From NCBI RefSeq assembly GCF_964213995.1, contig NC_135822.1, positions 53,072,001 to 53,136,000 on the forward strand: a DNA stretch of 64,000 nucleotides, given 5' to 3'. Positions 32,310 to 63,089 of the stretch are shown here, piece by piece (the stretch's first letter is position 1; every line of letters starts with the position of its first letter). The translations under genes and the position numbers were made by a program. The notes under the pieces were generated by a model, which saw only the letters and a list, made by a program, of their open reading frames with translations, was not told the origin of the DNA and searched no databases. This DNA is from Mustelus asterias (Eukaryota).

Positions 32310-32348
32310 GTTTTTTGTTCAGTGCCTGCGTCTCTGTGAGTCGCTGTG
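32310..32348 (-). promoter_or_regulatory. 23-bp-spacer RSS of V segment 1
   Basis: Heptamer CACAGCG (32342-32348), 23-bp spacer, nonamer ACAAAAAAC (32310-32318). Confidence 0.93.
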
Positions 32349-33196
32349 TAAACTCCAGGCGCAGTAATACACGGCTGTGTGATTTGCCCACAGCCCGGAT
32401 GACTCCAGGTAAAAGTGAATATTGTCAGGTCTCCTGGCAGTGAATCCGTCTACCTCACCGGAGGGAGGATTAACCATTCCGCGGTAGTTGGAATAGAAAA
32501 GGTTCTGAGGCTCAGAATCAGGATACCATCGAAACCAGTAGAAGTAGTTGCTTGCAACTGATTCCGTGTAAAGGCATTCGATGCTGACTGGAGTGCCCAG
32601 GGAACTGGACATGGAAGCGGGAGTCTGTTGGATCAGTACTGCAGCAACATCTGTAAAATAGAGAGGGAGAAGAAAGTATAAACACAGGGATAGTTTGCAT
32701 GCGGACGCCGAGCATGCAGGGGAAAAGAAAGGAGGAGGGGTCCTGGCGGACAGAGAAACAGAGAGACAAAAGGAGACGGAGAAACAAGGAAAACGCTTGG
32801 GTGGCAAGAGGTCCGAAGAGGACAGATGCTGACATGGGAAGAGAGGAAACTGCGCAGGTAAGAAAAGACTGAAAAGAGAGAAGAGAAAGAGCGGGTGACT
32901 TCCAGACAGCCAGAGAAAGAATGAAGGGAGGTAATGGACAGTCAGGCAATGCCAGACAGCGGCAACGATAAACCGAAAAATAGATAGTAATAGAGAGGCA
33001 GACACAGTGATATTAAGACAGGAGGATCAAACGATGTTGATGAAGCAAGTCAGGGCTGATTCCCAAATGAGGATACCAAGGCAGTGAAAGTGGGGATTAC
33101 TGTCTCATTCAGTGTCCAGCTTTCAGTGTTGACGGGTAAAGTGTCTACTTTACCCGTCAACACGAGCAACACAATCCAAAGCAGGGATAGAGCCAT
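32349..33196 (-). CDS. TRBV: TCR V segment 1 (beta-like, TRBV30-type); leader exon 33154-33196, V exon 32349-32650
   Basis: Leader MALSLLWIVLLVLT with phase-1 GTAAAG donor; acceptor ttttacAG; open V exon VLIQQTP...SIEC...YWFRW...LFYS...FTARRPD...AVYYCAWS; 23-RSS. Confidence 0.9.
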
Positions 33197-33465: not shown

Positions 33466-33504
33466 GGTTTTTGTTGCACTCATCCTGTACATTGTGTCAC
33501 TGTG
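33466..33504 (-). promoter_or_regulatory. Consensus 23-bp-spacer RSS of V segment 2
   Basis: CACAGTG (33498-33504), 23 bp, ACAAAAACC (33466-33474). Confidence 0.97.
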
Positions 33505-33935
33505 GAGTCGCCAGGCACAGTAATACAGCCCAGAGTGGTTCGCTCGCAGATTGGACGTTTGCAGGTGGAAAGTAGAGTCGTCGCTCCTCGAGGCACTGAA
33601 GTCATCCACGTCCGTCCTCGGCTGGATTTGGCCAGTGTTGGGCGAGTAGAAGAGCAGCAAGAGCTCGCCATTTGCCAGCTGGCGGTACCAGGAAAACTCA
33701 GAGCCAAAGGAACCCATTGCGGAACAGAGGATTTCGAGGTTGGAATTCAGGGATTTGGAGATGACAGATGGACTTTGCTGAACTGTGCCACCGGCTACAC
33801 CTGCGAATAGGAGGAAGATAATGGGGTTAGGTTTCAGCGGGTCTTTAAATTCGGAGCCAAACTGCAACAAGCGATGACCGAAGGAGACTCACCGTGCAAC
33901 AGAAGGACAGACACAAAAAACTGAATTAAATACAT
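33505..33935 (-). CDS. TRBV: TCR V segment 2 (beta-like, TRBV30-type); leader exon 33893-33935, V exon 33505-33800
   Basis: Leader MYLIQFFVSVLLLH with GTGAGT donor; 92-bp phase-1 intron; V exon TVQQSP...ILC...WYRQ...LLLLFYSPNTGQI...FSASRS...LYYCAWR, resembling human TRBV30 (LQLLFYSVGIGQI...LSASRP...CAWS). Confidence 0.93.
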
Positions 33936-54792: not shown

Positions 54793-55352
54793 GGTCAGTA
54801 CAGAGAGAGTAATGCATTGCTTGAGGGCCAGTACTGAGTGAGTCTGCACCGTCTGAGGGTCAGTACGAGGGAGCTTTCACTTTCTGAGGCTCAGTACAGA
54901 GGGAGACTGCACAATTGAGTGTCAGTATTGAGGGAGCATGCACTGTCTGAGTGACAGTGCCGAGGGGGTGTCGCACTATACAAGGGTCAGTACTGAGTTA
55001 GTCTGCACTGCCTGAGTGTCAGTACTGAGGGAGTGCTGCACTGTCAGAGGGTCAGTACTGAGGGCGTCTGCACTGTCAGAGGGTCAGTACTGAGGGGGTG
55101 CCGTACTGTCAGAGGGTCAGTACTGAGGGAGTGCCGCACTGTCAGAAGGTCAGTGCTGAGGGAGCGCTGTACTGTCGGAGGATCAACAATGAGGGAGGGC
55201 TGCACTGACAAATGTTCAATACTGAGGGAGTGCTGCACTGTCAGAGGGTCTGTGATGAGGGAGCGCTGCACTGCCAAATGTCCAGTACTGATGGAGCGCT
55301 ACATTATTGGATGGTCAGTATTGAGGGAGCACTGCACTTCCTGTGGGTCAGT
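54793..55352 (+). repeat. 33-bp minisatellite, roughly 17 imperfect units
   Basis: Unit GTCAGTACTGAGGGAGTGCTGCACTGTCAGAGG; translates as an 11-aa repeat (RGSVLRECRTV) in ORF 55033. Confidence 0.9.
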
Positions 55353-55867: not shown

Positions 55868-55906
55868 GGTTTTTGACAGGACATTGCCCCAGATCACACC
55901 GCTGTG
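55868..55906 (-). promoter_or_regulatory. 23-bp-spacer RSS of V segment 3
   Basis: CACAGCG (55900-55906), 23 bp, TCAAAAACC (55868-55876). Confidence 0.93.
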
Positions 55907-56344
55907 TAGCACTCATTGCACAGAAATACACAGCCGTGTCTTCAGGGGTGGCTTGCGGGAGCGTCAGAGTAGACTTTCTATCGCTGTCACCGATTATATT
56001 AAAATGGGTTTGGTCTTTTTCCTCGTAATGGACCGTTCCCCCGAACTGAATATACCCGATCAAAGTGAGGCCCTGACCAACTGATTGGCGGTACCACAGT
56101 ATGGATTGAGGAGTGGATTCCCGTTCATCGCAGTCAATGTTTGCCAGCTTGCCCTCTGCGACCACCAGTGTGAATGGACTTTGGAAAGGCTGCAATCCTT
56201 GTGTTGGGTCTAAAATAAAACGGAGCGGTTTCATCGAACGGTGCCAGAGAGAGTAAGAGCATTTTGACTATACATTCTAAAACGTCACTGGTTCATACAA
56301 ATCCTTGCAAACAGCCTCTGGATAAATCTGCCTGTAGTATTCAT
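55907..56344 (-). CDS. TRBV: TCR V segment 3 (fish-TRBV-like); V exon 55907-56209, putative leader 56299-56344
   Basis: Open V exon FQSP...NIDC...LWYRQSVGQGLTLIGY...IIGDSDRKSTLTL...EDTAVYFCAMS; acceptor ttttAG. Leader call is weak (MNTTGRFIQRLFARI, phase-1 GTATGA donor). Confidence 0.85.
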
Positions 56345-58539: not shown

Positions 58540-58867
58540 GGTTTTTGTGTGAGCTTGTGGCAGCTTTGTACCGTTGTGCGTTACTTGCAGCGCAGAAATA
58601 GGTCGCAGATTCTATAGACTGGCACTGTTCAGCTGCAGGGTGACGTTGTTGCTCCCAGCATCAAGTTAGGTGGCGAAACGCGGCTGGAAATCGGGTGAAC
58701 AGCCATCACACCCGCTGCAAATCCATTCTATCGTGGCTCCCTCCTCCCTGTATCAGAACATTGCCTAGGAGCCCATACTATCTGCCACCAAATTGCAGAA
58801 CAGACTGAGGGCCTGTTCCGATCTGAAAGAAGCTGCAGGTGCAAACTGGTGGGTGCAGCCCCAACCC
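58540..58867 (-). pseudogene. TCR V pseudogene, TRDV2-like family (V exon 58579-58867; RSS 58540-58578)
   Basis: EQALSLFC...MGS*AMF*YREEGATIEWICSGCDGCSPDFQPRFAT*...NNVTLQL/ESATYFCAAS; RSS CACAACG-23-ACAAAAACC. Confidence 0.85.
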
Positions 58868-59639
58868 CTAAAGCAGATTTAAAGGAAGACAAACGTCTTG
58901 GAACAATAGAACTATAAAGAAAAGAGGTCATTCGGCCCATCATGACAGTCCTAGCTCTTTAAAATTGCCATCAAATTACTCTCACCCTCCATGAGCCATG
59001 AAATTCCCCTCAATTGTGTATCTAGTCCGTTTATAACCTTATTGCTGCTTGCAGTCATAAATAACTTCGCGTCTTTCACCATATTTCGCTGTTGGCAGGG
59101 AATATTTGAGAGGCATATACTGATAGTACATTCAATGCGCCACCCAGAAGCTGAAGAAAGTGAAGGGCATTCTAGGTGAGAAATGCGTTGCATTTCTTAT
59201 GAGGTGACAAGGAAGGATAATATGTTACGAGCAAAGTGTTCCCATTCAACGGAAATACAACCGGATGTAATGGAACTGCGCTTCAAGATCGGCCAACCAA
59301 TTCGTGTGCCTGGGCCACACAGATCAGCAGCTTGAACACATGAGAACCAGATCATTTGCTTCTGTTTGTTATTTTGCTAAATCGTGGGACAGTACAGAAG
59401 GCGATTTCCGATATTAAAGGGTCACTTCCGGCGGGATGCGTGGCAGTGTTAGCAATTGCGGTCTCGCAATGTATGGCTCTGAAAGAAAATATTAGCTGGA
59501 CTTTGCGTTGGACAATTTTGGGGTCTTCCTCCTTAAAAGCAGGCTGCCTCCATTCCTATACTACATTATTGTATGAACTTCCAAAACGAGCAACAAAGCA
59601 CATGGGACCAACAATTTGCACGAGCACCTTGCTTGATGC

Positions 59640-60240
59640 AGAGAGGTATTGAGCACAATAGCGGCAGATTGCAAAAAAATATTTATAAAGTTCTAATTGA
59701 CCAATATCTGGAGTACTGTGACCAGTTCCGGTCGCCAGAATTTAAGACAGATGTCAGAGTCCTTGAGAAGATGCAGAGGGGATTTACCAGAATTGTTCCT
59801 GGATGAGAAAATTTCAATACAATGTTAGGTTGGGGAATACCGGGTTAGAGTTCTTGGAATGAGGGAGTTTGAAGAGAGATTTGGCCAAAATGAAAACAGG
59901 TTTAGATAAGATCAGCAATGAAAGCGTGCTCCCGTTAGATGATGGTTCGAGGACGCAGGAATGCAGATGCAACATTTTTCTTTGCAAGGGGGCAGTTACA
60001 GCGGGATTGTGAGGTGAAATATTATGACGCAGCCGACGGTCATGAGTTGGAACTCGCGGCCCCCAAGGTGGTGGAAACTGAGACAATCAACTCATATGAA
60101 ATCTGATTGGCACTGAAGGGAAGTCAAATGCAGTGCGCCAGGAATATAGCGGGGGAATGGATCGAATGAGACTTTTCTAGAGAGCCGGTGTAGATTTGAT
60201 GGGAGGAAAAGTCGCCCTTTGTGCCGGAATGACCTGTGAC
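59640..60240 (+). mobile_element. Old degenerate CR1 3' fragment
   Basis: YKVLIDQYLEYC...LEKMQRGFTRIVPG in ORF 59573-59806. Confidence 0.65.
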
Positions 60241-60368
60241 TAGCTAGATGCAAAGATGAGCAATCTTGGAAAGGTAACGTTCCGACAGAAATAGAATCTG
60301 ACTCATTCTCTTACTGACCTTTGTAAATCAGCTGGTGGGTTTGGGCGCATCTGGGAATGGTGTGGACG

Positions 60369-60709
60369 TTTTTTTGTATCAGTCTACAACAAGGGTTGTG
60401 TCTCTGTGTCACACTAGCTGCACAGTAAGAGGTTGCCGAGTCTGTGGGCTTGGAGTCTATCAGCTGCAGGCCGAAGCGGTTGTTTGTGGGCTGGTGCTTC
60501 ACTGGGAAGCGTTGCGCAAAAGCTGTGCCACAGCTGCCGGCTTCACGGCACATCCACTCGATTGCCTTCCCCTGCTGCATGTACCAATGCGTTGTGCAGC
60601 TGCTCATGCTGGCTCCCTCCGAACTGCAGCTCAAATCGAGAGACTGTTCTGGCAAAATAGCGGCGGCTAGGGGCTGGAGACTGGCCCACAGTGGATGCAG
60701 CCCAAACCC
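60369..60709 (-). pseudogene. TCR V pseudogene, TRDV2-like family (V exon 60409-60709; imperfect RSS)
   Basis: GVWAASTVGQSP, one frameshift near 60670, then EQSLDLSC...THWYMQQGKAIEWMCREAGSCGTAFAQRF...DSATSYCAAS; RSS CACAGAG-24-ACAAAAAAA. Confidence 0.85.
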
Positions 60710-61670: not shown

Positions 61671-63089
61671 TTATTTCTCCTTAGGAAAGGAAATCTGCCG
61701 GCCTCAGCTGGCCGGACCTACATGTGACTCTGGATCCAGGATGGTTGACTCTCTACTGCTTTCAAGACAAGTAGGGATGGGCAACAATCGCCTGCATCGC
61801 GAGCGGCAACCCAATTCCATGAAAACATTTGAAAGCCAATTACGGTAATTTGCCTGTTCTTACCCACTGCCCTCCGAATCTGCCCCTTGCCCACCTGTGA
61901 GTATTGATGCAATTTCACTTCGAAAACTAATATCAAATTTACGGCCTTTTGCGGACAATTGCGATTCCCCTTATTTCTACAATCAGCACTTACACCCAAT
62001 CCAGGGTCCGATAGAAAAGGTGACAAAGGTGACAAAGATTCTGACCGTTTTGGCTGAGATTGCCATCAGCCTTCTCAGGAGCCGATGGACAGAGTTACTT
62101 CCAGATAAGACGCCGCTTGTGAATTTACTCGTCTGGCAGTAGAAATGCCACAAGTTATGAGGAACTGAACCGAACACTTGGTCGTCCAATCACGTGGCTG
62201 AACAACACAAGTCAACCAATAGAACACGGGGATCATTTCCGATGGGAGCAGTGCTTATTTTGCAAATTCTTCCAAATCCCCCTTCCCTGCCTTCTCTCGC
62301 CTCTTATGTATTCCTTTTCTTCTTTTCTCTCCCTTCTACCTAGTATTGCCTCATTAATCATTGTTCAGAGATGAATCCATTCAGTAGTAAATGAGCATGT
62401 GTGGTGCAGCATTGCCATCTCTTGCTTTAGAGGCTACTTGAGCCTCTAAATCACCGTATTGGTATGGATTTAGAGTCCTTTCTATTGCCATCTGTTGCTT
62501 TAGAGTCTACATGAAGCTTAGGAAACACAGCACTTAAGTGTCACAGTTGATACGTTCAGAGCACATCTACGGGCACTGCATCTATGGGGTGAATGCATTT
62601 GCATCTTCTTGACAGCAACTCTTTTCGTTCTGCGATTGACACATGCGATTGAATGTCAAAATAGGCAAGGACGTTAGATTTTCCTCCGTAAATCACATTA
62701 TTGTCACACAAGCAACAATAGCATAGTAGTTAACATTGCTGAAATTAGCATTATTATATAGGTTTAAACAATGGAATTCAAATTGCAGCAATAGCCTTGG
62801 AGTAATTAAACCCTAGTCCACCAGAAGATTAGTCTGGGCTTCTGGATTGCCCGTCCAATTATATTATCATCAGACAAGCACCTGAAAGTTTCAGTACCGA
62901 TTCCATTCATGATAGACTTGAAATGTGCGAATGAGCTTGTTGTTTTTATAGAAGGACATGTCGAGTGCATACTTGAGCAAATTGTTCAGAAGTGGATATA
63001 GATCAGAAGATATTATATCCCCCAAGTTCAAGGGGTATAAGGGATGGAAAACAGTCGCCCATACCCCGGCAAAGAATCGGTCTGTACCA

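What the first reader, a model, noticed from the sequence alone, without database searches (positions are those of the whole stretch)
58540..60709. TRDV2-like V family with a Cys-x5-Cys CDR2, co-oriented with beta-like Vs
Seen: two pseudogenes read IEWMCREAGSCGTAFAQRF and IEWICSGCDGCSPDFQPRF, with Cys at the same two positions, both ending CAAS before an RSS. Known (recalled): human TRDV2 has MTFIYREKDIYGPGFKDNF here, a short-CDR2 delta signature with Tyr at those positions. Inference: a delta-type V lineage resides in this beta-like array, implying V exchange between TCR loci, and its shared Tyr-to-Cys pair may have formed a disulfide-stapled CDR2.
Basis: partly seen in the sequence, partly recalled or inferred. 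Interest (0 to 1): 0.7.

Follow-up and report, generated by a model that had tools for sequence, protein, structure and literature searches.

The report
Cysteine-stapled shark TCR-beta V pseudogenes
These are two broken copies of an old shark T-cell-receptor beta gene family whose intact copies, elsewhere in this genome and in a catshark, keep two extra cysteines that likely clip a very short antigen-contact loop shut; the family is likely the shark counterpart of the odd trout gene TRBV6 rather than a recently moved delta gene.

Summary
Observation confirmed. Both segments are broken V genes with 23-type RSS, lying inverted 3' of a TCR-beta D-J-C unit just left of the window. The Cys-x5-Cys is not decay: 12 of 12 readable copies in this genome carry it, including four intact genes in a second, colinear beta locus, as does a catshark orthologue; 0 of 114 other V domains do. 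The loop has the human TRDV2 register (Tyr at both sites), but the nearest relatives are bony-fish beta V genes of the trout TRBV6 type (39% identity versus 34% TRDV2-like, 32% IgH, 26% ordinary TRBV). Residence in the beta locus is therefore probably older than the shark/bony-fish split. A tie to TRDV2 is plausible but unresolved (73/88 support in one tree, lost in another; AU tests reject nothing), and no direction of exchange can be given. A C'-C'' disulfide is likely but unmeasured. The scan found this family before on other DNA, in this genome and in three others. New variant of a known kind; the window's own copies are dead.

The parts
61994..62066 (-).
   Evidence: 80% match to the leader region of the intact C24 paralogue, with a 9-nt duplication
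60409..60709 (-). VA V exon, pseudogene (4-nt insertion in FR1 near 60670); Cys pair at 60548-60550 and 60530-60532; 76% identical to intact C24 VA
60369..60408 (-). RSS of VA: CACAGAG, 24-nt spacer (23 in the intact paralogues), ACAAAAAAA
58579..58867 (-). VB V exon, pseudogene (7-nt deletion in FR1, stops at 58765-58767, 58753-58755 [Trp41], 58666-58668, 1-nt deletion near 58614); Cys pair at 58717-58719 and 58699-58701
58540..58578 (-). RSS of VB: CACAACG, 23-nt spacer, ACAAAAACC
55868..56201 (-). Neighbouring ordinary TRBV with open V exon and 23-RSS (context); orthologue at C24:52727651-52727946
45380..45707 (-). Neighbouring ordinary TRBV pseudogene (context); intact orthologue at C24:52719620-52719906
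33466..33795 (-). Ordinary TRBV (CAW type), open V exon, consensus 23-RSS (context)
32310..32642 (-). Ordinary TRBV (CAW type), open V exon, 23-RSS; the V nearest C-beta (context)

Best explanation
The two segments are broken copies of a shark TCR-beta V family, likely the counterpart of bony-fish TRBV6, whose intact members carry a Cys pair that likely forms a second disulfide across the base of a three-residue CDR2. Shown: they lie inverted 3' of a D-beta/J-beta/C-beta unit; a colinear second beta locus (C24) holds four VA genes with leader, splice sites, open frame and 23-RSS; the Cys pair is kept in three subfamilies only 49-61% identical and in catshark. Inferred: intact VA genes join D-J-beta by inversion and give beta chains; Cys54 (end of strand C') and Cys67 (start of C''; IMGT numbers by my own count) face each other across the hairpin and oxidise in the ER, fixing a short, rigid CDR2 that would touch classical MHC helices less than the usual longer loop, which points to altered docking or a non-classical ligand. 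The lineage probably entered or arose in the beta locus before sharks and bony fishes split; it shares a short-CDR2 design, probably by descent, with TRDV2-like genes, but the direction of any ancient exchange is not resolved. The window's pair decayed after the locus was duplicated.
For: D, J, C on the + strand at C22:53056765-53069265, window Vs on the - strand. C22 and C24 loci colinear over about 190 kb at about 80-83% identity. Four spliced open VA genes with CACAGAG-23-ACAAAAACG. Cys pair in 12 of 12 readable copies and in Scyliorhinus torazame GCB66420.1, 61% identical. Best non-shark relatives are bony-fish Vs, many in gene models with C-beta; trout TRBV6 DNA in PMC10464911 suppl. 3 reads as the same type (compared by eye). 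Mean identity without the CDR2 region: fish TRBV6-like 39.1, TRDV2-like 33.5, IgH 32.4, ordinary TRBV 25.6. Shark + fish clade 84 and 80/87. AlphaFold model pLDDT 95: C49 in strand 44-50, C55 a lone beta-bridge. Bamboo shark TRBV17/18, listed as transcribed in PMC10322711 suppl. table 3, match the pair in position (inverted, 3' of a C), spacing (1.7 kb), RSS offset 17 and, for TRBV18, a 64-nt leader exon found in 1 of 29 defined TRBVs; indirect, no sequence seen.
Against: No transcript or protein of these genes was seen. The Cys-Cys distance could not be measured and the bridge partner is not given by the tool. The shark + fish clade is never strongly supported and broke when one row was added: seven ordinary TRBVs joined the fish group at 81/81. 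AU does not reject shark + TRDV2-like without the fish genes (p 0.18). Fish and TRDV2-like rows were retrieved by likeness to the query, which inflates both identities. Trout TRBV6 itself was not in the trees. Most teleost members have a still shorter loop (11-13 residues, 16 of 18) and no Cys. No VB copy looks fully functional.
Confidence: 0.68

Rival explanations
1. One reading: a TRDV2-type delta V was moved into the beta locus in sharks, independently of fish TRBV6, and then gained the Cys pair from two Tyr.
For: Identical 15-residue register with TRDV2-like genes, 9/9 each; AU p 0.18 for shark + TRDV2-like; a basking shark TRA/D gene model holds a TRDV2-like V with Tyr at both sites; in this genome the best hits of a turtle TRDV2-like query are the C24 VA genes.
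Against: Fish TRBV6-like genes are closer for 5 of 6 shark queries, tie for the sixth; none of three trees puts the shark genes inside the TRDV2-like clade; they share the SYTM-type CDR1 with the fish genes, not with TRDV2-like rows (alignment); paddlefish has Cys at the first site.
Confidence: 0.14
2. The lineage is an ordinary if divergent TRBV family; likeness to TRDV2 is convergence on a short loop and retained ancestral VH-like framework, with no exchange at all.
For: AU p 0.15 for all beta Vs as one clade; an ordinary TRBV block joins the fish group; IgH is as similar as TRDV2-like; PDB sequence and fold hits are antibodies.
Against: Ordinary TRBVs are among the least similar groups (25.6%); the exact register and the Tyr-Gly-x-x-Phe C'' motif are shared by TRDV2-like rows and the paddlefish and Aldrovandia relatives.
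Confidence: 0.25
3. The two Cys do not bond to each other: they stay free, bind metal, or link to the alpha chain, a ligand or a second receptor, as the extra Cys of NAR-TCR supporting V-delta is thought to (recalled).
For: Paddlefish keeps only the first Cys; an earlier scan note says one shark lost one Cys (e1-9821779, not tested).
Against: Always paired in 13 of 13 shark sequences read; hairpin placement in the model; NAR-TCR supporting Vs are a different clade with the extra Cys in CDR1.
Confidence: 0.15
4. The Cys are post-inactivation Tyr-to-Cys changes with no function.
For: Two other Tyr-to-Cys changes are private to the window's dead copies.
Against: Same codons in intact paralogues and Cys in the catshark protein.
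Confidence: 0.01

Closest known systems
Salmonid TRBV6 (trout V-beta 6) and its bony-fish relatives (PMC10464911: passages and suppl. file 3 part 1 of 2 seen)
   Same: TRB-resident, short CDR2 (3 aa in the paper), SYTM-type CDR1, CAAS end; closest group by identity and in two of three trees.
   Different: No Cys pair; loop usually 2-4 residues shorter still; salmonid gene has two extra introns; shark has two subfamilies in tandem, amplified four times on C24.
Human TRDV2 (PDB 1hxm, 8wyi) and TRDV2-like Vs of turtle, tuatara, birds, gar, bowfin, paddlefish, basking shark
   Same: Same CDR2/C'' register and length; second most similar group.
   Different: Tyr (or Ser) rather than Cys; sits in TRA/D and joins C-delta or C-alpha; forms its own clade (97 to 100/95) that excludes these genes.
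Chiloscyllium punctatum TRBV17 and TRBV18 (PMC10322711 suppl. table 3, coordinates only)
   Same: Inverted pair 3' of a C-beta, 1.7 kb apart, RSS offset 17, 64-nt leader exon in TRBV18; both marked as transcribed.
   Different: Sequences not seen, so identity with this family is inferred; the parts I searched do not mention cysteines or CDR2.
Mammalian TRBV30 arrangement (PMC10464911 introduction)
   Same: V inverted 3' of C-beta, rearranging by inversion.
   Different: Here a whole array is inverted; TRBV30 itself was not compared.
NAR-TCR supporting V-delta
   Same: Shark TCR V with a non-canonical Cys.
   Different: Different clade, Cys in CDR1, long CDR2; this family has its own leader exon and no upstream V-D-J.

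Membership tests
TRBV (beta-locus V gene) | Lies in a locus with D-beta (12/23 RSS), J-beta and C-beta | tested here: met
TRBV (beta-locus V gene) | Leader exon, intron, V exon with Cys23-Trp41-Cys104, 23-RSS | tested here: met
   intact in four C24 VA genes; broken in the window copies
TRBV (beta-locus V gene) | Found rearranged to D-J-C-beta in transcripts | tested here: inconclusive
   no transcript seen; only the indirect match to bamboo shark TRBV17/18
TRBV6 lineage of bony fishes | Short CDR2 of about 3 residues with long SYTM-type CDR1 | tested here: met
TRBV6 lineage of bony fishes | One clade with TRBV6-like genes | tested here: inconclusive
   84, 80/87, not exclusive; closest by identity
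TRBV6 subgroup in the IMGT sense | At least 75% nucleotide identity (PMC10464911) | tested here: not met
   protein identity at most 48%; lineage counterpart, not subgroup member
TRDV2 / TRDV2-like | Same CDR2-C'' register | tested here: met
TRDV2 / TRDV2-like | Location in TRA/D locus, use with C-delta or C-alpha | tested here: not met
   all copies found are beside beta-type V, D, J, C on C22, C24, C69/C73
TRDV2 / TRDV2-like | Nests in or is sister to the TRDV2-like clade | tested here: inconclusive
   never inside; sister with fish genes at 73/88, lost; AU p 0.18
NAR-TCR supporting V-delta | CDR1 Cys, no own leader, upstream NAR V-D-J (definition recalled) | tested here: not met
   own leader; intact copies have Tyr in CDR1; separate clade
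V domain with second intradomain disulfide | Cys sulfur atoms within bonding distance and oxidised | not testable with these tools
   model gives secondary structure only

The most novel reading that the evidence does not exclude
Sharks keep a beta-chain V lineage that descends from the same ancestor as human V-delta-2, from before beta and delta V pools were sorted, and have locked its CDR2 with a disulfide because it serves a germline-encoded, MHC-independent contact (for instance a butyrophilin-like or non-classical MHC ligand; the V-delta-2/butyrophilin link is recalled). It would define an innate-like alpha-beta T-cell subset older than 400 million years.
Probability: 0.17. Interest if true: 0.78.

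Novelty: new variant of a known kind. Interest (0 to 1): 0.42.

Why it matters
CDR2-beta is the germline loop that normally rests on MHC helices (established knowledge). A lineage that has kept it at three residues from sharks to teleosts, and in sharks adds a paired Cys, is a natural test of whether all alpha-beta receptors dock on MHC in one way, a question PMC10464911 raises for TRBV6. It also bears on whether V genes moved between beta and delta loci early in jawed vertebrates; PMC12227049 (section 15 read) argues that VH-type Vs would be disadvantageous in TCR-beta, yet this family is VH/V-delta-2-like in sequence. The window's two copies add only that the pair was lost in one of the duplicated beta loci.

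Tried and rejected
Near-length homologue search with intact VA found nothing. No RNA holder listed for the C24 VA stretch. DNA contigs of three runs of one study hold both C24-type and window-type copies, the latter with a 4-nt insertion at the same place in 2 of 3 runs; they may be the assembly's own source, so this is weak support against an assembly error. Single-sequence fold was poor (pLDDT 60). Fold searches and PDB sequence searches were filled by antibodies and cannot tell V subtypes. Atlas searches gave generic V-set clusters, with TRGV names near the top; TRGV was among the least similar groups (24.6%), so rejected. Three searches for a TRDV2-like gene in this genome's TRA/D region found none, but only 150 of 373-899 candidates were scored each time, so absence is not shown. 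My first guess, NAR-TCR supporting V-delta, was rejected. Whole-genome duplication as the cause of two loci: colinearity stops at the locus ends in the roughly 360 kb and 300 kb compared, so a locus-sized duplication is preferred; flanking genes were not identified. Criscitiello 2006, Criscitiello 2010 and Ott 2021 were not held; nurse-shark V-beta families in them or in eLife Fig. 3 (figure not held) may already include this V. Paper searches (listings) showed no paper on the Cys pair. Supplements 12-15, 18 and 19 of PMC10322711 were not searched. No complex prediction was run.

Full report
Observation. Six-frame translation and an RSS scan show both motifs on the minus strand. VA spans 60709-60409 with a leader exon at 62066-61994; VB spans 58867-58579. 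Against intact paralogues, VA has a 4-nt insertion in FR1 and a 24-nt spacer; VB has a 7-nt deletion, three stops, one replacing Trp41, and a 1-nt deletion before the second Cys. Four more V segments lie in the same orientation at 55.9, 45.4, 33.5 and 32.3 kb.

Locus. The window is G000:C22:53072001-53136000. A D-beta with 12/23 signals (53056765), a J cluster (53057244-53060657) and C-beta exon 1 (53068936-53069265) lie on the plus strand just left of the window. So the window's Vs are an inverted array 3' of C-beta and would rearrange by inversion (inferred, as described for the mammalian inverted TRBV in PMC10464911, passages seen). A second beta locus on C24 is colinear over about 190 kb at about 80-83% identity, and colinearity ends outside the locus. 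A third D-J-C and a divergent inverted J-C lie on C69. The bamboo shark locus in PMC10322711 suppl. table 3 also has arrays inverted 3' of C, so this layout is in print.

The cysteines. C24 carries four tandem cassettes of about 16 kb, each with a VA and a VB. All four VA genes splice to an open frame with a 64-nt leader exon and end in CACAGAG-23-ACAAAAACG (two encode the same protein). Of the four VB copies one is truncated, two have a stop in FR1 and one has an open V exon but no usable leader ATG that I could find. A third subfamily is a pseudogene on C69, with a near-identical copy on C73; a further B-like fragment beside each could not be read through CDR2. All 12 readable copies have both Cys. 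The catshark protein GCB66420.1 (61% identical, open frame) has them too. In an alignment of 123 V domains both Cys occur in 9 of 9 family rows and 0 of 114 others; paddlefish MBN3280863.1 has the first Cys and Tyr at the second site. The pair is therefore older than inactivation. Two other Tyr-to-Cys changes are private to the window copies.

Relatives. A profile search for longer proteins returned mainly bony-fish gene models, many with C-beta and named TCR beta chains. Trout TRBV6 DNA in PMC10464911 suppl. 3 (part 1 of 2) reads, by eye, as the same type; the paper gives it a 9-residue CDR1 and 3-residue CDR2, and cites expression in several salmonids. A separate set from turtle, tuatara, birds, gar, bowfin, paddlefish and basking shark is TRDV2-like: the turtle protein's best single-domain PDB hits are human TRDV2, and the bowfin model joins C-alpha. 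With the CDR2 region left out, mean identity of the shark family is 39.1% to fish TRBV6-like, 33.5% to TRDV2-like, 32.4% to IgH, 28.7% IgL, 27.3% other TRA/D, 25.6% ordinary TRBV, 24.6% TRG. Both top groups were retrieved by likeness to the query and labelled by me, so these means lean upward. Loop register is 15 residues in 9/9 shark and 9/9 TRDV2-like rows, 2/18 fish rows (others 11-13), 0/37 ordinary TRBV, 2/24 TRA/D, 2/5 IgL.

Trees. Quick tree, 123 of 148 distinct rows (25 dropped as near-duplicates, partial or NAR-type): shark clade 94, fish clade 87, joined 84, TRDV2-like 97, all in an open fork with IgH and IgL. Careful tree, 53 rows: 97/94, 91/93, joined 80/87; sister to TRDV2-like at 73/88. 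Adding one broken neighbour V changed the deep order: seven ordinary TRBVs joined the fish group at 81/81 and TRDV2-like was no longer sister. AU tests rejected neither shark + TRDV2-like (p 0.18) nor all beta Vs together (p 0.15). With 98 columns the deep forks are unresolved. What holds: the shark genes are one clade, never inside the TRDV2-like clade, and nearest to fish TRBV6-like genes by distance. Because both sharks and bony fishes hold this type with beta genes, and both hold TRDV2-like genes with alpha/delta genes, any exchange probably predates their split; direction is unknown.

Mechanism. The alignment-based model of intact VA has pLDDT 95; Cys49 lies in strand 44-50 and Cys55 is a lone beta-bridge after a four-residue turn. 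This fits the C'-C'' hairpin with the two Cys facing each other; cross-strand disulfides favour such non-hydrogen-bonded pairs (recalled). Coordinates are not returned, so distance and partner are not shown. I put a disulfide at about 0.8. It would stiffen a loop already too short for the usual MHC contact, implying altered docking or a non-classical ligand (inferred; untested). Expression is supported only indirectly: bamboo shark TRBV17/18 are marked as transcribed and match in position, spacing, RSS offset and the unusual 64-nt leader (1 of 29 defined); that lead came from an earlier scan note and I checked coordinates only.

Novelty. Nine paper searches (listings, plus passages of PMC5931798, PMC10464911, PMC3457774, PMC8559430, PMC12227049, PMC10322711; a term search of PMC11372145 gave nothing) showed no description of the Cys pair or of a TRBV6-TRDV2 link, but three key shark TCR papers were not held. 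The scan noted the same family earlier in this genome and three others; I had reached the TRBV6 reading before that look-up, and these notes are not independent evidence.

Noticed in passing
G000:C22:53136396-53136690 and 53154873-53155150 (L227, L226), just right of the window: Two more broken Vs of a related short-loop type with 23-type RSS and no visible Cys pair; only these two copies found by DNA search, none in the C24 locus; unplaced in the tree.
   Followed up: partly
G000:C22, C24, C69: Three TCR-beta D-J-C loci on different large contigs; C-beta exon 79% (C24) and 59% (C69) identical to C22. In the stretches read, C22 has more broken Vs than C24, as if decaying.
   Followed up: partly
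G000:C69:30602921-30607193 and C73:7080013-7080297: Very divergent beta-type C exon (39%) with one J found, inverted behind the C69 locus; C73 holds a near-identical copy. Also noted earlier by the scan (e1-8850858).
   Followed up: no
G000:C24:52730000-52795000: Four tandem cassettes of about 16 kb (VB, VA and two CAW-type Vs), recent amplification; C22 has one.
   Followed up: partly
P0006 (Cetorhinus maximus XP_078425937.1) residues 249-342: TRDV2-like V in a shark TRA/D gene model beside NAR-TCR and Ig-like Vs; long branch but inside the TRDV2-like clade in two trees.
   Followed up: partly
P0108 (Polyodon spathula MBN3280863.1): Intermediate form: TRBV6-like CDR1, Cys at the first site, TRDV2-like Tyr-Gly-x-Gly-Phe at the second; its locus is unknown.
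   Followed up: partly
G000:C71 and many small contigs: TRA/D-type Vs are spread over C71 (12-19 Mb) among IgH clusters and over many small contigs, often as identical copies.
   Followed up: no
window 54990-55350: Degenerate tandem repeat with a period of about 30 bases.
   Followed up: no
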